Assembly: GCA_038851755.1 (NCBI GenBank)
Contig: JAWCKR010000006.1
Location: 11,350 to 75,349 of the forward strand
Direction: 5' to 3'
Length of the DNA stretch: 64,000 bases
From: Candidatus Hadarchaeales archaeon
Lineage (GTDB): Archaea; Hadarchaeota; Hadarchaeia; Hadarchaeales; WYZ-LMO6
The position numbers and the translations under genes were made by a program. The notes under the pieces are model-generated. The model was given only the letters and a program-made list of their open reading frames with translations, was not told where the DNA came from and did not search any database. This document shows positions 4,478 through 62,063 of the stretch, piece by piece. Every line of letters starts with the position of its first letter. The first letter of the stretch is position 1.

Positions 4478-5535
4478 GGGAGCTGGAGGAGCTGAGGGAG
4501 TTCCGCCGCGAGGTGGGCCCCATCCGTCCTCCCTCTGAGGGAGGAAGCTGTTCCCTCCTCCTGAGGGTAACCAGGAACTGTCCCTGGTCCCTGTGCAAGT
4601 TCTGTTATGGCAGACCATACGGGAGGGGGAGGTTCTCCCTCAGGACGGTGGAGGAGGTGAAGGGGGAGGTGGAAAAGATGGGCAGGGTGTTGGAACTCCT
4701 GCGGGAAAAAGGGGAGGAAGTATGGAGGCTGCTTCCCCACCTCCCTGAGGGAAGCCGGGAGGGCCTGTATAACCTCCTGTCATGGTCCTCCTCCGGCAGC
4801 CGGACCATCTTCCTCCAGGATGCAGATGTGCTCCTCATGCCCACCCCAAAGTTGGTGGAGATACTGGAGGAGGTGAGAAGAAGGCTGGGGGAGATGGAGA
4901 GGATCACATGCTACGCCAGGGGGAGGTCCCTCTCCCGGAAGTCGGTGGAGGAGCTGGGGAGGCTCAGGGAGGCGGGGCTCTCCAGGCTGCACGTGGGTCT
5001 GGAGAGCGGGGACGGGGAGGTGCTGGAGAGGATGAACAAAGGTCTGACTCCGCAGGAGGTGGTGGAGGGTGGGAGAAAGGCCGGGGAGGCGGGGCTGGAG
5101 CTTTCTCTCTACTACATTCTGGGTCTCGGAGGAGAAGAGAGGTGGGAGGCGCACGCCAGGAACACGGCGAGGGTCCTCAACGAGGTAAATCCCGAGTTCG
5201 TGAGGGTGAGGCGCCTGGTACCCCTGAGGGGCACCCCCCTCTTTCAGGAGTGGAGGGAGGGAAGCTTCAGGCTCCAGAGCCCCCACGGTGAGCTGAGGGA
5301 GCTGAAGCTGCTGGTGGAAGAGCTGGAGTTCTCGGGCAGGCTGTGCTTCGACCACTTCGCCAACCCTTTCTACCTCACCCCGGGGGGACCCAGGTGGGTG
5401 TTCGATCAGAGTTACAGCGGTTACCGCTTTCCCGCCGAGAAGGATGAGGTTCTGAGGAGGATAGAGGAAGGGCTTGAGAGGGAGGAAACCCTCTACGTCA
5501 GCTCGGCGAGCCTTTCAGTGCTGGAAGCCCTGTGA
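4474..5535 (+). CDS. radical SAM domain protein with an unusual CX4CX2C cluster (CPWSLCKFC)
   Basis: The GTG start overlaps the HDAC stop (GTGA). The sequence contains the Cys triad, glycine-rich SAM-binding stretches and a C-terminal extension. Confidence 0.65.
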   Translation: MRELEELREFRREVGPIRPPSEGGSCSLLLRVTRNCPWSLCKFCYGRPYGRGRFSLRTVEEVKGEVEKMGRVLELLREKGEEVWRLLPHLPEGSREGLYNLLSWSSSGSRTIFLQDADVLLMPTPKLVEILEEVRRRLGEMERITCYARGRSLSRKSVEELGRLREAGLSRLHVGLESGDGEVLERMNKGLTPQEVVEGGRKAGEAGLELSLYYILGLGGEERWEAHARNTARVLNEVNPEFVRVRRLVPLRGTPLFQEWREGSFRLQSPHGELRELKLLVEELEFSGRLCFDHFANPFYLTPGGPRWVFDQSYSGYRFPAEKDEVLRRIEEGLEREETLYVSSASLSVLEAL

Positions 5536-5538
5536 ACC

Positions 5539-5718
5539 TCATTCGGGGAAGGTGATGGCGCCGGTGGTGCAGACGGCCTCGCAGGCCCTGCAGTCCACGC
5601 AGTCCTCGGCCTTCACCACCTTGGCCTTCTTGTCGTTCACTTCCAGCACGCTCACGGGGCAGGCGTTGACGCATTCCCCGCAGCCTGTGCATTTCTCGGT
5701 GTCTATCTTAGGTGGCAT
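5539..5718 (-). CDS. 2x[4Fe-4S] ferredoxin (59 aa; not in the ORF track)
   Basis: Manual translation gives MPPKIDTEKCTGCGECVNACPVSVLEVNDKKAKVVKAEDCVDCRACEAVCTTGAITFPE, with two CxxCxxCxxxCP motifs. A TATA-like AAAGTTTAAATAC lies upstream on the reverse strand. Confidence 0.7.
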   Translation of the reverse strand: MPPKIDTEKCTGCGECVNACPVSVLEVNDKKAKVVKAEDCVDCRACEAVCTTGAITFPE

Positions 5719-5765
5719 CCTTTTTCGTAACTTCCGTTGTATTTAAACTTTATCCGGGGAGCAGG

Positions 5766-7679
5766 TCAGACACCCGCTAGGAGGAGAATCCGGTACATCA
5801 CCCCTCCCAGCCAGAGCGCGAAGAGGACCTCCGCGAGCGCGATGTAGAGGGACCTCCTCCAGCCCACCTCCCTCACCAGGGCGGCCAGCGTGGCCACGCA
5901 GGGAAAGTAGAACATGGTCACGGTGGCGAAAGTGAGCATCTGGGCGTGGGTGAGGTGGAGGGAGAGGTCGGACCCTAGGAGCAGGGTGAGCATGATGAGG
6001 GTGAGTTCCTTCCTCAGCAGGCCGAAAAGGAGGACCACCCCCGCCACTGCGGGCAGGCCCAGCCAGCCCACCGTGAGGGGGCTCAGGAGGTTGGAGAAGG
6101 GGTCCAGGAGGCCCGCCACCCTCAGGAGCGTGAGGATCAGGCTGCCGCCCAGGATGAAGGGCAGGGCCACGTAGAGGAAGTCCTGGGTCCTGTTCCAGCT
6201 ACCGCGGAGGACCGTGGGAAGGTGGGGCCTGCGGTAGGGAGGGATTTCCATGATCAGCCCCACGGGTTCCCCAGGCAGGATTTTGAAGGCCAGCCTGCCT
6301 AGCAGGAAGATCACCGCCAGGTCCAGCAGGTAGAGGAGAAGGGCCCATCCCATCCCCACGAACTTGCCCACCAGGCCCAGGATTACCACCGTGCGGGCCG
6401 CGCAGGGTACGAGGGTGGAAAGAAAGATGGAGAGGAGCCTCTCCCTCTCCGTTTCCATGATCCTGCAGCCCAGGCAGGCCGGAACGTTGCATCCGTAGCC
6501 CAGCAGGAGGGGAATGAAGGCCTTACCGTGCACCCCCACCCTGTGCATGAGCCCGTCCATCAGGAAGGCGCCCCTCGCGAGGTAACCCGAGTCCTCCAGG
6601 AGGGTGAGGAGGAAATAGAAGGGCAGGACGAAGGGCAGGACGATGGTCAGACCAGCCAGCACCCCTCCCAGCACCCCCTCCCCCACCAGGCCCCCGAACC
6701 TCTCCGAGGTCCACTCCACCAGGGGGTTCGTAAGCCTCTCCAGGGCCTCCTCCACCCTTCCCCCGACCCAGAAGACCGTGAGGAGGATGGAGAGGAGCAC
6801 GCACGCCAGGATGAGGTAGCCCAGCACGGGATGGGTGGTCAGGGCATCCAGCCTTTCGGTGGGGGTGGGGGCGGGGTGGATGCGCTGGGTCTGGTTCGCT
6901 ATCCTGTGGGCCAGGCCGTACCTGCAGGAGCTGAGGAGGGTGGAGGCCCTCTCCCCGTAAAGCCTCTCCAGCTCCCGTGAGTACCTCCTCGCCAGCTCAA
7001 CCGCCCCGGGTGCGGTCCTGCCTACGAGTTTCCTGACCTCCTCGTCCCCCTCCAGAAGCTTCAGGGCCAGCCACCTGGGGGGATACCCGGTGCCCGCCTT
7101 CTCCAGCAGGGGGAGGAGGGTACGTACCCTCCTCTCGATCTCCCTCCCGTAGGAGAACCTGCGTAACCTGATCTTCCTCCTGCCCTCCGCCACCTCCACG
7201 GCCCTCTCCAGCAGGGTGTGCATTCCCTTCCCCCTCACGGCCACGGTGGGCACCACGGGGACCCCGAGCTGTCTCTCCAGCTCCCTGGGGTCCACCTTCA
7301 CACCCTTCCTCTCCGCCACGTCCACCTGGTTCAGGGCCACCACCACCTTGGGCTCCAACTCCAGCAGCTGGAGGGTGAAGAAGAGGTTCCTCTCCAGGGA
7401 GGAGGCGTCCACCACGTTGATCACCACGTCCGGTCTCTCCCCCGCGATGTACTCCCTGGAGATCCTCTCCTCCAAGGAGAAGGTGGAAAGGGAGTAGATT
7501 CCGGGGAGGTCTATCACATCCACCACCCTCCCTCTGAAGTGCAGGGTCCCCTCCGCCTTCTCCACGGTCTTCCCTGGCCAGTTGCCCACATGCTGGTGGA
7601 GGCCCGTGAAGTGGTTGAAGATCACCGATTTCCCCACGTTGGCGTTCCCTGCCAGGGCTATCCTGAGGTGGGCCTTCAT
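5766..7679 (-). CDS. feoB: ferrous iron transporter FeoB
   Basis: The N-terminal G-domain has GNANVGKS and DLPG. The large C-terminal polytopic membrane domain is typical of FeoB. Confidence 0.9.
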   Translation of the reverse strand: MKAHLRIALAGNANVGKSVIFNHFTGLHQHVGNWPGKTVEKAEGTLHFRGRVVDVIDLPGIYSLSTFSLEERISREYIAGERPDVVINVVDASSLERNLFFTLQLLELEPKVVVALNQVDVAERKGVKVDPRELERQLGVPVVPTVAVRGKGMHTLLERAVEVAEGRRKIRLRRFSYGREIERRVRTLLPLLEKAGTGYPPRWLALKLLEGDEEVRKLVGRTAPGAVELARRYSRELERLYGERASTLLSSCRYGLAHRIANQTQRIHPAPTPTERLDALTTHPVLGYLILACVLLSILLTVFWVGGRVEEALERLTNPLVEWTSERFGGLVGEGVLGGVLAGLTIVLPFVLPFYFLLTLLEDSGYLARGAFLMDGLMHRVGVHGKAFIPLLLGYGCNVPACLGCRIMETERERLLSIFLSTLVPCAARTVVILGLVGKFVGMGWALLLYLLDLAVIFLLGRLAFKILPGEPVGLIMEIPPYRRPHLPTVLRGSWNRTQDFLYVALPFILGGSLILTLLRVAGLLDPFSNLLSPLTVGWLGLPAVAGVVLLFGLLRKELTLIMLTLLLGSDLSLHLTHAQMLTFATVTMFYFPCVATLAALVREVGWRRSLYIALAEVLFALWLGGVMYRILLLAGV

Positions 7680-7683
7680 CCCT

Positions 7684-8301
7684 TCACCCGAGGGGTTTCA
7701 CGAAGACCCTTGAGGCCAGCCCCCTGCCCACCGCCAGGGTGGTGTCCCTCACCCTCACCATGAGGGGCCCGCGGAAGAGGGCGGACTTCAGGACCTCCAC
7801 CTCGGTCCCCGGGGTGAGCCCCATGTCGGCCAGCCTGCGGCAGGCGGAGGTACCGCCGGAGAGGAAGGAGACCACTCCTCTCTGCCCTTCCAGAAGACCC
7901 GTGAGGGGGAGGGAGCCGGTGGGCACCCCCCTGGGCAGCCGCTGGGCCTCCATCCGCCGGTGGATGGCGGCCTCCACCTCCTCGGGGATGTGGTGCTCCA
8001 GCTCGCATGCCTTCTGGTGGGCCCTTGAGGGGGAGAGTCCGAGGCTGCTGAGGAACCTCTCCATCACCCTGTGCTTCCTGAGGATGCCCCTCCCCACCTC
8101 CTCCCCCTTCCTGGTGAGGGTCACCCCCCGGTAGGGGTGATGGCGGAGGTAGCCTCCTTTGGCCAGCTTCTTGAGCATGAGGGTGGCGCTGGAGGGGGCC
8201 ACTCCCAGCTCCCTCGCCACCTTCGTGGTGGTGCTCCTCTCCCCCCTTTCCTTCAGGCGGTAGAGGGCCTCTAGGTACTCCTCCGAACTCTCGGTGGTCA
8301 T
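7684..8301 (-). CDS. DtxR/IdeR-family metal-dependent repressor with a C-terminal SH3-like (FeoA-like) domain
   Basis: It has an N-terminal wHTH (ARELGVAPSSATLMLKKL) and metal-site H/E/C residues. The C-terminal FeoA/SH3-like segment is VVSFLSGG...LADMGLTPGTEVEV. The gene sits immediately upstream of feoB. Confidence 0.8.
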   Translation of the reverse strand: MTTESSEEYLEALYRLKERGERSTTTKVARELGVAPSSATLMLKKLAKGGYLRHHPYRGVTLTRKGEEVGRGILRKHRVMERFLSSLGLSPSRAHQKACELEHHIPEEVEAAIHRRMEAQRLPRGVPTGSLPLTGLLEGQRGVVSFLSGGTSACRRLADMGLTPGTEVEVLKSALFRGPLMVRVRDTTLAVGRGLASRVFVKPLG

Positions 8302-17761: not shown

Positions 17762-18694
17762 ATGGAGAAGCTGATTATCACCGTGGCCCCCACGGGAGGG
17801 GAGTTCGTTTCCAAGATGTTCACCCCCCATGTCCCCTGCACGGTGGAGGAAATCGTGGAGGAGGTGGTGAGGTGCCGCAGGGCGGGGGCCTCCGTGGTCC
17901 ACCTGCACGCCAAGGACCCAGAGACGGGGTTCCCACACCCCCAGCCCAACTCCGTCTTTCCCGAGTACGTGAGGAGGATCAGGGAGAGCGAGGCCTCGGA
18001 CATCATCATCAACCTCACCACGGGGGGAGGAAGGCCCCTGCCCGGTCCCCTGGCGGAGATGCTGGGGAGGAAGACGGAGATGACCCCGGAGGAGTACCGG
18101 AGGAGCCTGGACAGGGTGATGGAGGAGAGGATGACCTTCGGGCAGGAAATGAGTTCCCTGAACATGGGCTCCATCAACCTCTGGGAGGACATGGGCTTCC
18201 CCTCCCTCAGGGAGGAGATCTTCGACAACCCCGTGGCCAGGATAGAGAGGTGGGCGGAGTACATGTACCGCAACGGGGTGAAGCCCGAGCTAGAGATCTA
18301 CGACACGGGTCAGATCAACACCGCCAAGGTCCTGGTGGAGGAGGGAAAGCTGAAGGAGCCCCTTCACGTCCAGTTCGTGATGATGGGCGGGCTCTCCTGC
18401 ATGTCCCCCACCGCGGACACCCTCCTTTACTGCGTGAGGGCCTTGCCCGCGGGGTGGACCTGGTCGGTGTGTGCGCCCGGGAGGCACGAGATGCCCATGG
18501 CGGCCCTGGCCATTCTCCTGGGGGGTCACGTGAGGGTGGGGATGGAGGACAACCTCTACGTGGAGAAGGGGGTGCTGGCGAAGAGCAACGCCGAGCTGGT
18601 GGAGAAGGTGGTCAGGCTGGCGAAGGAGCTGGGCAGGGAGGTGGCCTCCCCCGAGGAGGCCCGCAGGATCCTGGGCCTCAAGCCCAGGTCCTAG
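17762..18694 (+). CDS. BKACE-family (DUF849) 3-keto-5-aminohexanoate cleavage enzyme-like protein
   Basis: It has MEKLIITVAPTGGEF and VHLHAKDPETG, characteristic of beta-keto acid cleavage enzymes. Confidence 0.65.
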   Translation: MEKLIITVAPTGGEFVSKMFTPHVPCTVEEIVEEVVRCRRAGASVVHLHAKDPETGFPHPQPNSVFPEYVRRIRESEASDIIINLTTGGGRPLPGPLAEMLGRKTEMTPEEYRRSLDRVMEERMTFGQEMSSLNMGSINLWEDMGFPSLREEIFDNPVARIERWAEYMYRNGVKPELEIYDTGQINTAKVLVEEGKLKEPLHVQFVMMGGLSCMSPTADTLLYCVRALPAGWTWSVCAPGRHEMPMAALAILLGGHVRVGMEDNLYVEKGVLAKSNAELVEKVVRLAKELGREVASPEEARRILGLKPRS

Positions 18695-19101
18695 CCTTCG
18701 GGCTTCAGCTCCAGGGTCTCCCACCTCACCCTTCCTCCCTCCACCACCTCCTTGATCTTCCTCTCCACGGGAGTGAGGACGCTCCTCCCCGTCTTCACCT
18801 CCAGGAACACCACCTCCGTGGGCTCCCCCCTGCTGTGCCCCTCGAAGATCACGTAGTCCACCGGGGAGCCTATGAAGCGGGCGTCGGAGGGCTCGTACTT
18901 GAACTGTGGGAGGAGGGGGGCCATCTGTTCCCCTATCCTCCCCTTCAGGACGGCCCTGCTCCTCTCCAGGGCCTCCCTCCTGAGGGTTTCCTCCACTTCA
19001 AGCTTCCATCTCTCCAGCTTGCTCCTGAAGAGGGAGAGGAGGAAGAGATAGGCTGCTCCCAGCCCCAGCAGGAAGCCCAGCAGCAGCCAGAGGGTCTCCA
19101 T
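18691..19101 (-). CDS. membrane-anchored PD-(D/E)xK nuclease-like protein (Hjc-related; COG4741-like)
   Basis: It has an N-terminal TM helix and a coiled coil. The C-terminal core VDYVIFEG...EVVFLEVKTG is Hjc-like, with D...E-V-K catalytic residues. Confidence 0.5.
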   Translation of the reverse strand: METLWLLLGFLLGLGAAYLFLLSLFRSKLERWKLEVEETLRREALERSRAVLKGRIGEQMAPLLPQFKYEPSDARFIGSPVDYVIFEGHSRGEPTEVVFLEVKTGRSVLTPVERKIKEVVEGGRVRWETLELKPEG

Positions 19102-19254
19102 CCTCCTCTTTTCTGAAAGGAGCAGGTAAAGCCTTTGTATCCAGGCAAAAAGGCTGGGGGAAAATTCTTGAGTCCTCTTTTAAAAGGAATAAATCCGACT
19201 CGAATGAGAAGCAGGGCTATAGGAGGACGGATGGAGGACCTCTAAGGGACCGGA

Positions 19255-20952
19255 ATGGAGGGAGTCCTGAAAAAGACGGTGAAGCTGAAGCTGAATATAG
19301 AGCCTACAGAGTTGGAAGAGGTGATGAGTAAGTACTCAGCCGCCGTGAACTTTTACATCAAGCGCTGCTTCCAGGTTCTAACCAACAACCGTTGGCTAGG
19401 AAAGAGTGAGAGGTTCCAGGCTACCTGTTCGTCGTGCGGGACCGAAGGTACCGTGGTCTCCGTCGGGTCTCTGGGAAGCTTGTGCGCCGACTGCCGTAGG
19501 AACATGCTTAGTTACAATGCCCTGCGCAAACGTTTCACTCCTACCAAAGAGAGGCGCGTACCGGCCGCAGATAATGTTTACCTCGCGGCTCGTAACTTAT
19601 CGCCTACCCTCGCCGCTCAGGCTTTTCAGCATGCACAGGCAATTCTCAAGAGCTGGTTTGCCCTGAAAAAGAAGAGGGATTACGCACTTAGGGACGTGGA
19701 GAAGAAGCTAAGGCTCTGGAAGGAAGTCCTGGAAGACAGCGAAGTGGTGGCGGGGGAGGGGAAGATTAAAGCACGCGTAGTGGTGCCCCCCAAGGGACGA
19801 CAGCGTCTGCCTAGGTTCAAGCATGTCCTTCACCCGGAGAACTTCAAAGGAAGGACCCTGAGGGGGATAGAGCTAGCCATCGAAAAACTGGAGAGGAGAC
19901 GTCGCGCACTTTTGAAAGAGCAGTTGCCCCCCAAGTTCCGCGGAGAATCGATGTGGCTTCACAAGAACTCGATAAAATTCTTGGACGAGCGGAGGGTCAA
20001 GCTCGTGCTGGAAGGGAAGCACATGGAAGTGCAATTTCATGCTTTGGAGGTCGAGCGCGAAAAGAGCAGAGATTACCTAATGAGGTATGTTCGCTTAGCG
20101 CTCGAGATGCAGGAGAGAAACATCCATGCCTATCCCAGGTTGCTCATTGAAAACGGTTCTTGCTTCCTGGAGTTTCCGGTCAGGATACCCTTTGGGACAC
20201 CAGAGCCTGACGAAACTTTCGGGGCAGTGGGTATCGACCGTGGGGTCAACTCGCTTATAGCTTTTGCTGCGGTCAACCGCTACTTGGGCAAGCCCCATCA
20301 TTTGTGGTTGGCGAGCGGTGGGGAATTGTCCTTGCTTAGGGCGAAGGGAAGGCTGCTCCGGAGGAGGTTATATGAGGTGGGCAAAGTTCACCGCGAGCAG
20401 GGGAAGCGTTTCCGGTTACGCAGGAGATTAAAATCGATGAAGAAAGAGAGTGAGCTCTCGAAACATATCCTGCATGGGATTGCGAAGTCCGTGGTGAGGA
20501 AGGCGAAGGAGCTGTATCCCGACGGACGCGTGGTTATAGTAATGGAGAAGCTCGAAGGCCTTCGCCCGGTGAAAGGGAAGAAGCATGAGCGCTCTTTGAA
20601 TTTCAAGCTTTCGAGTTTTGCATACAGGAGGCTCGGGGAATACATACATTACAAGGCTCAGGAGGAGGGAATACCCGTAATTTTCGTACCACCCTCAGGG
20701 ACCTCCACCAGGTGTTCTAAGTGCGGTTGCGACAATCCCTCTAACAGGTCAGGTGGTTTCTTTAGGTGCTCCAATTGTGGATTCCAAATGAACGCTGACC
20801 TGAACGCTGCAATAAACATTGCCAACCGCTTCTACGAAAATTTTAAAGGCGGAGAAAAACAGAACGGAATTGGGGCCGAGGAACGCCCGGACCCCTCGGC
20901 TCCGAGTAGGTCAAGCTCACCAGAAGGTGAGGAGCGCGCCCCTAACCCCTGA
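19255..20952 (+). CDS. tnpB: TnpB/Cas12f-like RuvC nuclease (565 aa) with an N-terminal C4 zinc finger and a C-terminal zinc ribbon
   Basis: RuvC-I is GAVGIDRGVN, RuvC-II is VIVMEKLEGL, the Zn ribbon is CSKCGC...CSNCG and RuvC-III is NADLNAAINIA. The N-terminal zinc finger is CSSCG...CADC. The C-terminal tail is disordered and G/E/P/S-rich. An RBS AGGAGGA and a TATA-like TTTTAAAAGG lie upstream. Confidence 0.85.
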   Translation: MEGVLKKTVKLKLNIEPTELEEVMSKYSAAVNFYIKRCFQVLTNNRWLGKSERFQATCSSCGTEGTVVSVGSLGSLCADCRRNMLSYNALRKRFTPTKERRVPAADNVYLAARNLSPTLAAQAFQHAQAILKSWFALKKKRDYALRDVEKKLRLWKEVLEDSEVVAGEGKIKARVVVPPKGRQRLPRFKHVLHPENFKGRTLRGIELAIEKLERRRRALLKEQLPPKFRGESMWLHKNSIKFLDERRVKLVLEGKHMEVQFHALEVEREKSRDYLMRYVRLALEMQERNIHAYPRLLIENGSCFLEFPVRIPFGTPEPDETFGAVGIDRGVNSLIAFAAVNRYLGKPHHLWLASGGELSLLRAKGRLLRRRLYEVGKVHREQGKRFRLRRRLKSMKKESELSKHILHGIAKSVVRKAKELYPDGRVVIVMEKLEGLRPVKGKKHERSLNFKLSSFAYRRLGEYIHYKAQEEGIPVIFVPPSGTSTRCSKCGCDNPSNRSGGFFRCSNCGFQMNADLNAAINIANRFYENFKGGEKQNGIGAEERPDPSAPSRSSSPEGEERAPNP

Positions 20953-21130
20953 AAGAAGGGGGACGGCAAGCGTGCTCGGGCAGCGTCGCACTGCCAGAGC
21001 TCGGACCTGCCCCGCTTTCGAGCGGGATGCAAGGCTCCGGCCCCGATGACATGAGGGGACGGGTCAGAACGGGCGACGCCTTCCCAACTTTTGAACGTCT
21101 TTATAAACCTTCTTTGTAAAAACCGAAGTT
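20870..21130 (+). ncRNA. candidate omegaRNA (reRNA)/tracr-like structured RNA overlapping the tnpB 3' end
   Basis: There are at least five consecutive GC-rich hairpins: GCCGAGG..CCTCGGC, CTCACC-agaa-GGTGAG, CCCCT..AGGGG, GGCAG-cgtcgca-CTGCC, CCCGC-tttcga-GCGGG and CCCC..GGGG. They are followed by an AT-rich stretch containing CCCAACT...TTGAAC, which is complementary to parts of the downstream repeat. Confidence 0.4.
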
Positions 21131-21330
21131 CAAACGGTGGGAACCAGGGAGTCCAGTGGGGCCGTACTGGCATCACCAGAAACGAGGGGGGTTTCAATAG
21201 ACTCAGGAGTTGGGTGGGTGATGCGACCACTACGGAGTTGTACTTTTCTCCCTCAGGAGGTGAGGATTCTCGCCTTGACGAGGCGAAGATCTTGGGTTGT
21301 TTCAATGGACCCAGGAGTTGGGTAGGTCAT
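21128..21330 (+). repeat. two 32-bp direct repeats separated by 76 bp, plus an upstream degenerate copy
   Basis: The repeats are GTTTCAATAGACTCAGGAGTTGGGTGGGTGAT at 21191-21222 and GTTTCAATGGACCCAGGAGTTGGGTAGGTCAT at 21299-21330. They match at 28 of 32 positions and are 76 bp apart. An upstream degenerate copy, AGTTCAAACGGTGGGAACCAGGGAGTCCAGTGGGG, lies at about 21128-21165. Confidence 0.6.
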
Positions 21331-21350
21331 ATCTTAAAGTTAGATGGGGT

Positions 21351-61054: not shown

Positions 61055-61998
61055 TTCCCAGGATAGTGGTGGTGGGGAGTCTCCATGTGGATCTGCTGTT
61101 GAGGGTGGAGAGGCTGCCCAAACCGGGCGAGACGGTGCTGGGGAAGGAGCTGAGGATGGGGATGGGTGGGAAGGGAGCCAACCAGGCCGTGGCCGCCGCC
61201 AGGCTTGGGGCGAAGGTGTGGATGGTGGGTAGGGTGGGGAAGGACGAGTACGGGAGGAGGATGGTGGAGAACCTGAGGAGGAACGGCGTGGACACCTCCC
61301 ATGTCAGGGAGGACGAGAGGCCCTCGGGGAGGGCCCTCATCCTGGTCGACGGGAGGGGGGAGAACCTCATAGGGGTTTACCCCGGAGCGGACGAGGGATG
61401 CGGCGAGGAGGATGTGGAGAGGGCCAGGGGAATCTTGAGGAAGGCCGACCTGCTCCTCGCCCAGCTGGAGGTTCCCCCTAGGACCGTGGAAAAGGTCCTG
61501 CGAGTGGCGTGGGAGGAAGGAACCAAGACGGTGCTGAACCTCGCACCCTCCAGACCCCTCTCCAAGGCGGCTTGGAGGAGGATAAGCGTGCTCGTGGTCA
61601 ACGAGGGAGAGGCCTCCCAGACGGTGGGGAAGGGAAAGGTGGGGGAGCTGGCGGGGAGACTCCTGAGAAAGGGTCCGGAAGCTGTGATCGTTACCCTTGG
61701 GGGGAGGGGAGCTTACCTGAGGACGGGAGAGAGGGAGAGGAGAGTTGGCGGGGTGAAGGTGAGGGTGAGGGACACCACGGGGGCGGGGGATGCCTTCTGC
61801 GGTGCTTTGGCGGTGGGTTTGGCTTCTGGCAAATCGCTGGAGGAGGCCGTTCTCTGGGCCAACTGCGCCGGGGCTCTGGCCACCACCAGGGTTGGGGCCC
61901 AGGAGGCCCTGCCCTCACGGGAGGAGGTGGACCGCCTTTTCTGGAGGCTGGCTGGTGAAAAATTTAAGGGGGGAGGAAAAGAGGAGTTGGGCCCGTAG
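61051..61998 (+). CDS. rbsK: ribokinase (PfkB family)
   Basis: It has the GG motif (GGKGANQAVAAARLG) and the C-terminal motif DTTGAGDAFCGAL. ATGA couples it to the hydrolase gene. Confidence 0.85.
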   Translation: MIPRIVVVGSLHVDLLLRVERLPKPGETVLGKELRMGMGGKGANQAVAAARLGAKVWMVGRVGKDEYGRRMVENLRRNGVDTSHVREDERPSGRALILVDGRGENLIGVYPGADEGCGEEDVERARGILRKADLLLAQLEVPPRTVEKVLRVAWEEGTKTVLNLAPSRPLSKAAWRRISVLVVNEGEASQTVGKGKVGELAGRLLRKGPEAVIVTLGGRGAYLRTGERERRVGGVKVRVRDTTGAGDAFCGALAVGLASGKSLEEAVLWANCAGALATTRVGAQEALPSREEVDRLFWRLAGEKFKGGGKEELGP

Positions 61999-62063
61999 CT
62001 TAGCATGGTTAGAGCGCTCGGCTGATAACCGGGAGGTCCTGGGTTCAAATCCCAGCGGGCCCA
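61989..62063 (+). tRNA. tRNA-Ile (anticodon GAT)
   Basis: A cloverleaf was built by hand. The acceptor stem is GGGCCCG/CGGGCCC, the D-stem GCTT/GAGC, the anticodon stem CTCGG/CCGGG with loop CTGATAA, and the T-arm CTGGG-TTCAAAT-CCCAG. The discriminator is A and no CCA is encoded. It overlaps the ribokinase stop by 10 nt. Confidence 0.85.

What the first reader, a model, noticed from the sequence alone, without database searches (positions are those of the whole stretch)
20870..21130. Dense hairpin cluster and anti-repeat-like complementarity downstream of tnpB (candidate omegaRNA/tracr)
The region 20870-21075 forms consecutive stable stem-loops, which is not expected for an ordinary 3' UTR: GCCGAGG/CCTCGGC, CTCACC/GGTGAG, CCCCT/AGGGG, GGCAG/CTGCC, CCCGC/GCGGG and CCCC/GGGG. 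The following AT-rich segment contains CCCAACT and TTGAAC, which are complementary to the AGTTGGG and GTTCAA parts of the downstream repeats. That is the arrangement expected for an anti-repeat:repeat duplex (tracrRNA:crRNA), or for an omegaRNA whose guide-adjacent stem pairs with the right end.
Basis: seen in the sequence. Interest (0 to 1): 0.55.

Follow-up and report, generated by a model that had tools for sequence, protein, structure and literature searches.

The report
Guide-RNA scaffold (tracrRNA) of archaeal Cas12f2
The hairpin-rich stretch is a real, conserved non-coding RNA gene: the tracrRNA of a miniature Cas12f2 (Cas14b-type) CRISPR nuclease in a Hadarchaeales archaeon, followed by a tiny two-repeat array. 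It is a new example of a known kind of system, not a new kind.

Summary
All six hairpins sit at the stated coordinates. Five related loci keep the same stems through compensatory changes: 94.6% of cells paired, 15 of 37 pairs changed on both sides, 0 of 500 shuffles as good.

The upstream ORF (19255-20952) is not a plain tnpB. It scores 554.8 bits against NCBIfam Cas12f2 (cut-off 450).

The segment 21073-21088 is a true anti-repeat for the 3' half of repeat 1 (21191-21227). The pairing is specific to each locus's own repeat. A second, short anti-repeat lies in a hairpin loop (GUCGCA, 20985-20990). It pairs with the repeat's 3' end (UGCGAC) and co-varies across lineages. This is the long-plus-short repeat/anti-repeat pseudoknot design reported for Cas12f1 and Cas12b.

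One correction: TTGAAC's exact complement GTTCAA is not in the repeats. It lies in the leader, where it forms a conserved hairpin (21088-21099 with 21125-21136) whose loop carries a TATA-like box. This hairpin occurs in all eight Cas12f2-like loci I read, and its role is unexplained.

The locus is a 2.2-kb low-GC island with no cas1, cas2 or cas4 in the window. It has one 71-nt spacer and a degenerate last repeat, so it encodes a single fixed guide.

Verdict: a new member of a known kind, of moderate interest.

The parts
19255..20952 (+). cas12f2 (Cas14b-type) effector gene, 565 aa. Its last ~30 codons run past the homologues' stop positions and overlap the tracrRNA gene.
   Evidence: NCBIfam NF049972 CRISPR_Cas12f2: E 2e-166, 554.8 bits against a cut-off of 450, model positions 1-523 of 524. 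Pfam Cas12f1-like_TNB. Invariant in the four-protein alignment: D328, E431 and D515 (RuvC), plus C58/C61/C77/C80 and C487/C490/C505/C508 (zinc fingers). The public record names it 'transposase' from Ca. Hadarchaeales.
20837..20847 (+). TATA-like A/T box (AAAATTTTAAA) about 22-30 nt upstream of stem 1. Inferred tracrRNA promoter, lying inside the cas12f2 coding sequence.
   Evidence: It is one of only 46 runs of 7 or more A/T in the 64-kb window. By reading the sequences, a TTAA[AG]A-type box sits at a similar distance upstream of stem 1 in L001, L002, L003 and L091. In the bacterial relatives L004 and L005 a sigma-70 promoter (10 of 12 matches) is called at the same relative place. Transcription itself is inferred.
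20868..21099 (+). tracrRNA scaffold. Both ends are inferred. The 3' end could instead lie after the conserved hairpin, near 21143.
   Evidence: MFE folds. Homologous region in L001, L002, L003 and L091. A covariance model finds one copy per locus, E 1e-25 to 1e-32. G-U pairs in stem 1 and hairpin 3 support the + strand. No Rfam family matches.
20870..20905 (+). Stem 1 (20870-20881 with 20894-20905), with conserved loop AACGCCCGGACC.
   Evidence: 8 of 11 pairs changed on both sides across 5 loci, 98% of cells paired.
20916..20931 (+). Hairpin 2, CTCACC/GGTGAG.
   Evidence: Sequence-invariant in 4 loci. L091 has CTCATCC/GGGTGAG. An invariant stem says nothing for or against pairing.
20932..20977 (+). 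Hairpin 3: outer stem GAGCGCGC/GCGTGCTC, CC/GG, inner stem CCCCT/AGGGG, loop GAAAGA. The ORF's stop codon TGA (20950-20952) lies in this loop.
   Evidence: 4 of 8 outer pairs and 1 of 5 inner pairs changed on both sides.
20979..20995 (+). Hairpin 4, GGCAG/CTGCC. Its loop GUCGCA (20985-20990) is the short anti-repeat, complementary to the repeat's 3' end UGCGAC (21222-21227).
   Evidence: Stem: 2 of 5 pairs compensatory. Loop versus repeat end co-varies: GUCGCA:UGCGAC (window, L003), GUCACA:UGUGAC (L091), GUUGCA:UGCAAC (L004, L005), GUCGCA:UGUGGC with wobbles (L002).
21011..21065 (+). Two variable hairpins: CCCGCT/AGCGGG (21011-21026) and GGCTCCGGCCCC/GGGGACGGGTC (21033-21065).
   Evidence: MFE. 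Shared with L001 and L091. Replaced by other hairpins in L002 and L003.
21073..21088 (+). Long (proximal) anti-repeat GCGACGCCTTCCCAAC, pairing with the 3' half of repeat 1 (21208-21224).
   Evidence: Each locus's own pairing is the strongest in a 4x4 matrix, with the same bulge pattern in all four loci. Full-length duplex: 0 of 300 shuffles in window and L002, 1 of 300 in L003.
21081..21143 (+). Conserved hairpin: core 21088-21099 with 21125-21136, extended in this locus to 21081-21143. The loop 21100-21124 holds the TATA-like box TTTATAAA (21100-21107) and GTAAAAACC.
   Evidence: Inverted repeat I4, 19 nt, 84% complementary. On MAFFT alignment A7: 87.9% paired, 5 of 12 pairs changed on both sides, 0 of 500 shuffles reach the paired percentage. 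Present in all 8 Cas12f2-like loci read. The strict TATA-like motif occurs only 4 times on the + strand of the window.
21144..21190 (+). Leader remainder between the hairpin and repeat 1.
   Evidence: No significant similarity to the repeat (239 of 500 shuffles as good).
21191..21227 (+). CRISPR repeat 1, 37 nt: GTTTCAATAGACTCAGGAGTTGGGTGGGTGATGCGAC.
   Evidence: Direct-repeat family D3. Same length and same ends (GTT.CA...GATGYGAC) as the array repeats of L003 and L091.
21228..21298 (+). Single spacer, 71 nt. The first ~20 nt (CACUACGGAGUUGUACUUUU) would be the guide.
   Evidence: Coordinates. No target in the window with up to 3 mismatches, in the GenBank phage set or in IMG/VR.
21299..21335 (+). 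Terminal repeat 2. The first 25 nt are 92% identical to repeat 1. The 3' end is degenerate (…GGTCATATCTT) and lacks UGCGAC.
   Evidence: It cannot form the short anti-repeat pairing, so it only closes the array.

Best explanation
Region 20868 to about 21100 (possibly to about 21143) is the tracrRNA gene of a type V-F2 CRISPR-Cas locus: cas12f2, then tracrRNA, then a two-repeat mini-array.

Proposed mechanism:
- The RNA is made from its own promoter, which is embedded in the 3' end of cas12f2.
- It folds into a scaffold of stem 1, hairpins 2 to 4 and two variable hairpins.
- It binds the crRNA through two contacts. The long anti-repeat (21073-21088) pairs with the 3' half of repeat 1. The short anti-repeat in the loop of hairpin 4 (GUCGCA) pairs with the last six bases of the repeat (UGCGAC), forming a pseudoknot next to the guide.
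- The tracrRNA:crRNA complex loads into Cas12f2, whose catalytic residues are intact, and directs cleavage of DNA matching the first ~20 nt of the single spacer.
- Repeat 2 lacks the UGCGAC end, so the locus encodes exactly one guide.

Shown here: the sequence features, structural covariation, locus-specific complementarity, and the family of the protein.
Inferred: transcription, RNA ends, processing, loading and cleavage.
For: - Protein family: Cas12f2 HMM above its curated cut-off; RuvC and zinc-finger residues invariant.
- Conservation: the RNA region is homologous in the only four close relatives found among 5.8 billion protein clusters, plus L091.
- Stem covariation: 94.6% paired, 15 of 37 pairs compensatory, 0 of 500 shuffles; slid controls give 34-51% paired.
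- Anti-repeat: each locus's anti-repeat pairs best with its own repeat.
- Pseudoknot: the short anti-repeat co-varies in three sequence states.
- CRISPR context: sister loci carry real arrays (L003, L091, L005) and csa1-cas1-cas4-cas2 (L002).
- Not coding: the homologues' ORFs stop before the RNA, and the overlapping mechanical ORFs have no Pfam hits.
Against: - There are no expression data, so the RNA ends and the promoters are inferred from motifs alone.
- Only five close sequences support the covariation, and alignment A6 was fitted to the model.
- There are no adaptation genes in the 64 kb, only two repeats, an odd 71-nt spacer and no identifiable target. The locus could therefore be a decaying remnant even though every element looks intact.
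- The distal anti-repeat has a conserved local partner, so the full-length duplex in the MFE fold (21073-21117 with 21182-21224) is probably over-extended.
- The three 5' bases of the long anti-repeat and the short anti-repeat compete for bases 21222-21224.
Confidence: 0.86

Rival explanations
1. It is the omegaRNA (reRNA) of a transposon-borne TnpB. The scaffold would overlap the 3' end of tnpB and end at the transposon's right end, with the guide read from flanking DNA.
For: The scaffold overlaps the ORF's 3' end in this window. The protein also matches the broad guided_TnpB subfamily model (128.5 bits, cut-off 100). The locus is a small low-GC island. tracrRNAs of type V-F systems are thought to descend from omegaRNAs (my own knowledge).
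Against: The IS200/IS605 and IS607 TnpB models score 37-38 bits against cut-offs of 425 and 350, while Cas12f2 scores 554.8 against 450. The scaffold is followed by 37-nt CRISPR repeats that are homologous to repeats of real arrays. A sister locus has cas1/cas2/cas4. No tnpA is among the neighbours. The ORF overlap is peculiar to this window, since the homologues stop before the RNA. In L091 the RNA travels with the array, not with the nuclease gene.
Confidence: 0.04
2. tracrRNA and crRNA are not separate transcripts. One long RNA would run from the tracr promoter through the conserved hairpin and leader into the array and fold in cis, as a natural single-guide precursor. The A/T box in the hairpin loop would then be an RNA element, not a promoter.
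For: The MFE of 20860-21225 pairs the anti-repeat with repeat 1 in cis. In the bacterial relatives L004 and L005 a sigma-70 promoter is called upstream of the tracr and none between tracr and array. In L004 the hairpin's 3' arm abuts a 5'-truncated first repeat, so the anti-repeat pairs with repeat 1 in cis. The loop motif TTTAT..GCAAAA is shared by archaeal and bacterial loci.
Against: In all five archaeal loci the loop carries a good archaeal TATA-type box at a promoter-like distance from the 3' arm. Short T runs (TTTT 21089-21092) could end the tracr. No data on transcripts exist.
Confidence: 0.3
3. The locus is a decayed remnant. The RNA gene is recognisable as a tracrRNA but no longer serves an active system in this genome.
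For: No cas1/cas2/cas4 in the window. Only two repeats, the second degenerate. An atypical 71-nt spacer with no detectable target. The stop codon is lost, so the ORF reads into the RNA gene.
Against: All covarying stems, both anti-repeats, repeat 1 and the catalytic and zinc-binding residues are intact. The scaffold scores as high against the model as any family member (156.6 bits).
Confidence: 0.15
4. The hairpins are an ordinary 3' UTR or terminator, or they reflect coding constraints of the ORF's C-terminal tail, and the complementarity to the repeats is chance.
For: Part of the region (20870-20952) is inside the ORF. GC-rich sequence folds easily on both strands (the - strand gives z = -2.74).
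Against: Compensatory changes keep the stems in loci where the region is non-coding. Shuffles never reach the observed duplex. Pairing is specific to each locus's own repeat.
Confidence: 0.02

Closest known systems
Un1Cas12f1 (Cas14a1) and AsCas12f1 tracrRNA:crRNA, type V-F1
   Same: - A long, multi-hairpin tracrRNA encoded next to a miniature nuclease gene.
- A 37-nt repeat whose 3' part pairs with a long anti-repeat near the tracr 3' end.
- The last about 6 nt of the repeat pair with a hairpin loop of the tracr, forming a pseudoknot. This long-plus-short repeat/anti-repeat design is described in PMC11246509.
- The bacterial relatives L004 and L005 end their repeats in GGAATGCAAC, as I recall for Cas14a1.
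   Different: - The proteins are alignable only over the RuvC/TNB part (E 1e-10 to 1e-14 to PDB chains 7l48, 7c7l, 8j12, 7wju).
- I saw no recognisable primary-sequence similarity of the RNA by eye. This was not tested computationally, and there is no Rfam model.
- This scaffold is GC-rich and about 230 nt or more.
- It carries an extra conserved hairpin with an A/T-rich loop between the anti-repeat and the array.
Cas12f2 (Cas14b) loci tested by Karvelis et al. 2020 (Mi1, Mi2 and Au Cas12f2)
   Same: The same NCBIfam family. The same gene order: nuclease, then a putative tracrRNA region, then CRISPR repeats (PMC7229846). By analogy, a 5' T-rich PAM and cleavage after about position 21 are expected.
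   Different: Those loci come from Micrarchaeota and Aureabacteria. Their tracrRNA was used as an undefined 'putative' region, and I found no published structure. The present clade is rare, with four close homologues in 5.8 billion clusters, and here it sits in a Hadarchaeales genome without an adaptation module.
TnpB omegaRNA (IS200/IS605)
   Same: A structured RNA that starts near or inside the 3' end of the nuclease gene and ends next to the guide. The conserved anti-repeat, loop and 3'-arm hairpin resembles a guide-adjacent terminal stem.
   Different: CRISPR repeats are present, pairing is in trans (or long-range cis) with a repeat, there are no transposon ends or tnpA, and the protein fails the TnpB equivalog models.

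Membership tests
Type V-F2 CRISPR-Cas (Cas12f2/Cas14b) with tracrRNA | The effector matches the Cas12f2 family model above its curated threshold. | tested here: met
   NF049972: 554.8 bits against 450, full-length match.
Type V-F2 CRISPR-Cas (Cas12f2/Cas14b) with tracrRNA | Intact RuvC triad and zinc-finger/TNB domain in a miniature (400-700 aa) protein. | tested here: met
   D328, E431 and D515 and both CxxC...CxxC clusters are invariant. PF07282, E 3.6e-23. 565 aa.
Type V-F2 CRISPR-Cas (Cas12f2/Cas14b) with tracrRNA | An adjacent CRISPR array. | tested here: met
   Two 37-nt repeats 108 nt apart, homologous to the repeats of the multi-unit arrays in L003 and L091. It is minimal: one spacer, and fewer repeats than the three that, as I recall, CRISPR finders usually require.
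Type V-F2 CRISPR-Cas (Cas12f2/Cas14b) with tracrRNA | A non-coding RNA with an anti-repeat complementary to the repeat. | tested here: met
   0 of 300 shuffles reach the duplex energy in window and L002, 1 of 300 in L003. Each locus's own pairing is best.
Type V-F2 CRISPR-Cas (Cas12f2/Cas14b) with tracrRNA | A short repeat/anti-repeat pseudoknot next to the guide, as in Cas12f1 and Cas12b. | tested here: met
   6-bp complementarity in 6 loci, with changes on both sides at two positions. This is shown by sequence only, not by structure determination.
Type V-F2 CRISPR-Cas (Cas12f2/Cas14b) with tracrRNA | A conserved secondary structure of the scaffold. | tested here: met
   15 of 37 pairs compensatory, 0 of 500 shuffles.
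Type V-F2 CRISPR-Cas (Cas12f2/Cas14b) with tracrRNA | An adaptation module (cas1, cas2, cas4) in the locus. This is common but not obligatory. | tested here: not met
   No tblastn hit of the L002 Cas1, Cas2, Cas4 or Csa1 proteins in the 64 kb. The neighbours are housekeeping genes. The module is present in sister locus L002.
Type V-F2 CRISPR-Cas (Cas12f2/Cas14b) with tracrRNA | The tracrRNA is expressed, pairs with the crRNA and is required for cleavage. | not testable with these tools
   Needs RNA-seq and biochemistry.
TnpB/omegaRNA (IS200/IS605, IS607) | The protein meets the TnpB equivalog models. | tested here: not met
   IS200_TnpB 37.8 bits against 425. IS607_TnpB 36.9 bits against 350.
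TnpB/omegaRNA (IS200/IS605, IS607) | A transposon context: tnpA, or left and right ends, and multiple copies. | tested here: not met
   No tnpA among the neighbours. There is a single copy of the RNA and of the repeats in the window. Transposon ends were not searched for systematically.
Any Rfam family | A match to a curated covariance model. | tested here: not met
   No hit at the gathering threshold. The best hit at relaxed settings has E 5.9 and lies on the wrong strand.

The most novel reading that the evidence does not exclude
The conserved hairpin that joins the distal anti-repeat to the start of the leader, with a promoter-like A/T box in its loop, may be more than a passive 3' stem-loop. 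It could be a functional link between tracrRNA and array. One version: it is a surviving omegaRNA-type terminal hairpin at the point where an ancestral single guide RNA was split into tracrRNA and crRNA. Another version: it is a switch in which read-through from the tracr promoter and initiation from the loop promoter give cis-folded or trans-acting guides.

Combined with the orphan island that has one fixed guide and no adaptation genes, this would make the locus a natural intermediate between TnpB-style fixed guides and adaptive CRISPR.
Probability: 0.15. Interest if true: 0.7.

Novelty: new member of a known kind. Interest (0 to 1): 0.4.

Why it matters
- It turns a gene annotated as 'transposase' in a Hadarchaeales MAG into a complete miniature CRISPR effector locus that a minimum-repeat CRISPR finder would probably miss.
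- It gives the first covariation-supported secondary-structure model I am aware of for a Cas12f2-clade tracrRNA. The model includes both anti-repeats, so a single-guide RNA could be designed directly for a probably thermophile-derived 565-aa nuclease.
- The conserved hairpin between anti-repeat and array, and the minimal one-guide arrays in two of five loci, are worth a look for anyone studying how type V-F guide RNAs evolved from omegaRNAs.
- None of this changes current understanding of how tracrRNAs work.

Tried and rejected
- Rfam at gathering and relaxed thresholds: nothing.
- Pattern scans of JGI metagenome contigs and IMG/VR for the conserved tracr motifs: zero hits with the strict pattern. 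The looser pattern gave seven hits, all chance matches, six of them near-identical copies of one unrelated sequence.
- Protein-based scan of IMG/VR: no relatives.
- Covariance model R1 on 86 sources: it found only its five training sequences. The distant tracrRNAs of L004, L005 and L092 were recognised only by eye.
- Spacer targets: none in the window (full match or seed), in GenBank phages or in IMG/VR.
- The 3' arm of the conserved hairpin as a decayed 'repeat 0': not supported in window, L002 or L091 (239, 80 and 353 of 500 shuffles as good), only weakly in L003 (7 of 500).
- A second natural single guide at the hairpin: rejected, because no UGCGAC-type element follows the 3' arm (read from the sequences).
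- A tertiary pairing between the stem-1 loop GCCCG and CGGGC at 21069-21073, proposed by RNAalifold: not supported, because changes in L001, L002 and L091 are uncompensated (read).
- A hidden middle repeat that would explain the 108-nt repeat spacing: none visible at the expected position.
- The Harrington 2018 Cas14 paper could not be read; it is not held.
Full report
WHAT IS THERE

The window is a contig of a Candidatus Hadarchaeales MAG: a protein 100% identical to the ORF is deposited under that name and annotated 'transposase'. The ORF at 19255-20952 (+, 565 aa) lies upstream of the finding and partly overlaps it.

This ORF is not an ordinary TnpB:
- It matches NCBIfam NF049972 'type V CRISPR-associated effector Cas12f2' over model positions 1-523 of 524, at 554.8 bits (curated cut-off 450).
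- The transposon TnpB equivalog models score only 37-38 bits, against cut-offs of 350-425.
- The RuvC residues D328, E431 and D515 are invariant in an alignment with its three close homologues. So are an N-terminal CxxC...CxxC cluster and the C-terminal TNB zinc ribbon.

Downstream lie two 37-nt direct repeats. Repeat 1 is at 21191-21227 and repeat 2 at 21299-21335. They are separated by a single 71-nt spacer.

THE OBSERVATION

The + strand of 20868-21145 folds with z = -3.57, and no shuffle out of 200 does as well. When 20860-21225 is folded as one molecule, the MFE structure pairs 21073-21117 with 21182-21224, that is, with repeat 1.

The duplex energy is -43.8 to -49.6 kcal/mol. No shuffled anti-repeat out of 300 reaches it. 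In a scan of the whole window on both strands, only the repeats' own reverse complements and two other sites are better.

Two details need correcting:
- GTTCAA, the exact complement of TTGAAC, occurs once, at 21128 in the leader. The repeats carry GTTTCAA.
- Repeat 2 as a whole pairs no better than background (-29.6 against -25.8, sd 4.6), because its 3' third is degenerate.

RELATED LOCI

The family is rare. A word-indexed search of 5.8 billion protein clusters gave only three close homologues, at 56, 53 and 43% identity. An exhaustive profile search of 1.84 billion cluster representatives gave 59 proteins at E below 1e-30, and roughly 35 of them are full-length Cas12f2-like.

I fetched these contigs:
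- L001, L002 and L003 for the three close homologues.
- L091 and L092 for two further members.
- L004 (a Woykebacteria MAG) and L005 (a gammaproteobacterial MAG), two distant full-length relatives from GTDB genomes.

What they carry:
- L003 has a genuine array of identical 37-nt repeats with 35-36-nt spacers, starting about 310 nt after the gene.
- L091 has a six-repeat array and L005 has at least eight repeats.
- L002 has csa1, cas1, cas4 and cas2 next door.

The repeats of window, L003 and L091 share their length and both ends (GTT.CA...GATGYGAC). So the window's two repeats are CRISPR repeats, and the locus is a type V-F2 CRISPR-Cas locus.

THE RNA IS CONSERVED AS A STRUCTURE

The about 230-280 nt between gene and array are clearly homologous in window, L001, L002 and L003. 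The same element lies in L091, directly upstream of the array (7248 to about 7500). There it is separated from cas12f2 by an unrelated gene on the other strand. The RNA therefore travels with the array.

In the three close homologues the ORF stops before the RNA. Only the window's ORF reads about 30 codons further and overlaps it. Its stop codon TGA (20950-20952) lies in the loop of hairpin 3. Coding constraint therefore cannot explain the conservation. The overlapping mechanical ORFs have no Pfam match.

I built a covariance model from the five sequences. It finds exactly one copy per locus, E 1e-25 to 1e-32, and nothing else in 556 kb of session sequence. Results on the resulting alignment:
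- 94.6% of pair cells are standard pairs.
- 15 of 37 pairs have changes on both sides.
- No shuffle out of 500 reaches the observed paired percentage, the compensatory counts or the covariation score.
- Sliding the 3' partners by 1-3 columns drops pairing to 34-51%.
- Stem 1 (20870-20881 with 20894-20905) carries 8 compensated pairs out of 11.
- The outer stem of hairpin 3 carries 4 out of 8.
- Hairpin 4 carries 2 out of 5.
- Hairpin 2 (CTCACC/GGTGAG) is invariant and so uninformative.

A hand-registered table gives the same picture. G-U pairs in stem 1 and hairpin 3 would be A-C mismatches on the other strand, so the + strand is the RNA.

Caveats: there are only five sequences, and alignment A6 was fitted to the model.

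TWO ANTI-REPEATS

The segment GCGACGCCTTCCCAAC (21073-21088) pairs with the 3' half of repeat 1. The equivalent segments of L002, L003 and L091 differ in sequence, yet each pairs best with its own repeat in a 4x4 matrix, and all four show the same bulge pattern.

The loop of hairpin 4, GUCGCA (20985-20990), is complementary to the last six bases of the repeat, UGCGAC (21222-21227). This pairing changes on both sides in independent lineages:
- GUCACA:UGUGAC in L091.
- GUUGCA:UGCAAC in L004 and L005.
- Wobble pairs in L002.

Repeat 2 lacks the UGCGAC end, so it can only close the array. The locus therefore encodes one guide, beginning CACUACGGAGUUGUACUUUU.

THE AT-RICH SEGMENT

The core is 21088-21099 with 21125-21136, and in this locus it extends to 21081-21143 (inverted repeat I4).

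On an ordinary MAFFT alignment of the five close loci it is 87.9% paired, with 5 of 12 pairs compensated, and no shuffle out of 500 reaches that paired percentage. The anti-repeat also pairs best with the 3' arm of its own locus. A hairpin at the same place, with a different stem sequence, is present in L092, L004 and L005 too. That makes eight loci out of eight.

Its 22-25-nt loop holds TTTATAAA (21100-21107) followed by GTAAAAACC. In the five archaeal loci this reads as a good archaeal TATA box about 25-30 nt before the 3' arm. Such boxes are rare in this 62% GC window: there are 46 A/T runs of 7 or more, and four strict matches on the + strand. A similar box (20837-20847) precedes stem 1.

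The bacterial relatives complicate the promoter reading. There a sigma-70 promoter is called only upstream of the tracr, not in the loop. In addition, the loop motif TTTAT..GCAAAA is shared across the two domains.

I therefore cannot say which of these holds:
- The loop is the array promoter, and tracr and pre-crRNA are separate transcripts.
- The hairpin is the 3'-terminal stem-loop of a longer tracrRNA.
- One transcript runs through into the array. In L004 the 3' arm abuts a truncated first repeat, and the anti-repeat pairs with it in cis.

The leader is not a recognisable decayed repeat in the window. No UGCGAC-type element follows the 3' arm, so the hairpin is not a second single guide.

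CONTEXT

The cassette spans about 19100-21350 and has 51-58% GC, against 62-67% in the flanks. It sits between a Hjc-like endonuclease gene and a DJ-1/PfpI gene, among purine-biosynthesis and other housekeeping genes.
- The adaptation proteins of L002 have no tblastn match anywhere in the 64 kb.
- The repeats and the RNA occur only once in the window.
- The spacer has no match in the window (full length or seed), in GenBank phages or in IMG/VR.
- L002 likewise has only a solo repeat after its tracr.

COMPARISON AND VERDICT

In how it works, this is a Cas12f-type tracrRNA. In membership, the locus meets every sequence-level criterion I could test for type V-F2. The exception is the non-obligatory adaptation module.
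- No PDB entry is closer than Cas12f1 proteins aligned over the RuvC/TNB part only (E about 1e-14).
- No Rfam model exists.
- The papers I could read treat the Cas12f2 tracrRNA only as a 'putative' region (PMC7229846).

It is therefore a new member of a known kind. It is useful as a defined guide scaffold for an archaeal miniature nuclease. One feature remains unexplained: the conserved hairpin between anti-repeat and array.

Noticed in passing
window 19100-21350: The whole cas12f2, tracr and mini-array cassette is a low-GC island (51-58% against 62-67% in the flanks). It is wedged between housekeeping genes, which suggests horizontal acquisition. No cas1, cas2 or cas4 is present anywhere in the 64 kb.
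   Followed up: partly
window 20855-20952: The cas12f2 ORF reads about 30 codons beyond where its three homologues stop, and it overlaps the tracrRNA gene. Its TGA stop lies in the loop of hairpin 3. The tracr's TATA-like box (20837-20847) is inside the coding sequence.
   Followed up: yes
window 21228-21298: The single spacer is 71 nt, about twice the 35-36 nt seen in L003. It contains its own hairpin, TCGCCT/AGGCGA (about 21270-21286). No target was found.
   Followed up: partly
L002 6896-6932: Sister locus L002 has only one solo repeat after its tracrRNA, and it runs straight into the 3' end of cas4, although csa1, cas1, cas4 and cas2 are adjacent. No array lies within the 11.6 kb fetched.
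   Followed up: partly
L091 4537-7936: In L091 the tracrRNA (7248 to about 7500) sits beside the array (about 7551-7936). An unrelated minus-strand gene separates it from cas12f2 (5001-6452). This Cas12f2 is N-terminally short (483 aa), and an RNase H/RVT_3-domain ORF (4537-4992) directly precedes it.
   Followed up: no
L004 4789-4931: The Woykebacteria relative has a two-repeat mini-array. The first repeat's 5' part is replaced by the 3' arm of the conserved hairpin, so tracr and repeat 1 can pair in cis like a natural single guide.
   Followed up: partly
window 18691-19101 (-): A gene for an endonuclease related to the archaeal Holliday-junction resolvase (PF10107, E 4.6e-40) lies immediately upstream of the island.
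   Followed up: no
window 61989-62063 (+): A tRNA gene, the only Rfam gathering-threshold hit in the window (70.7 bits).
   Followed up: no
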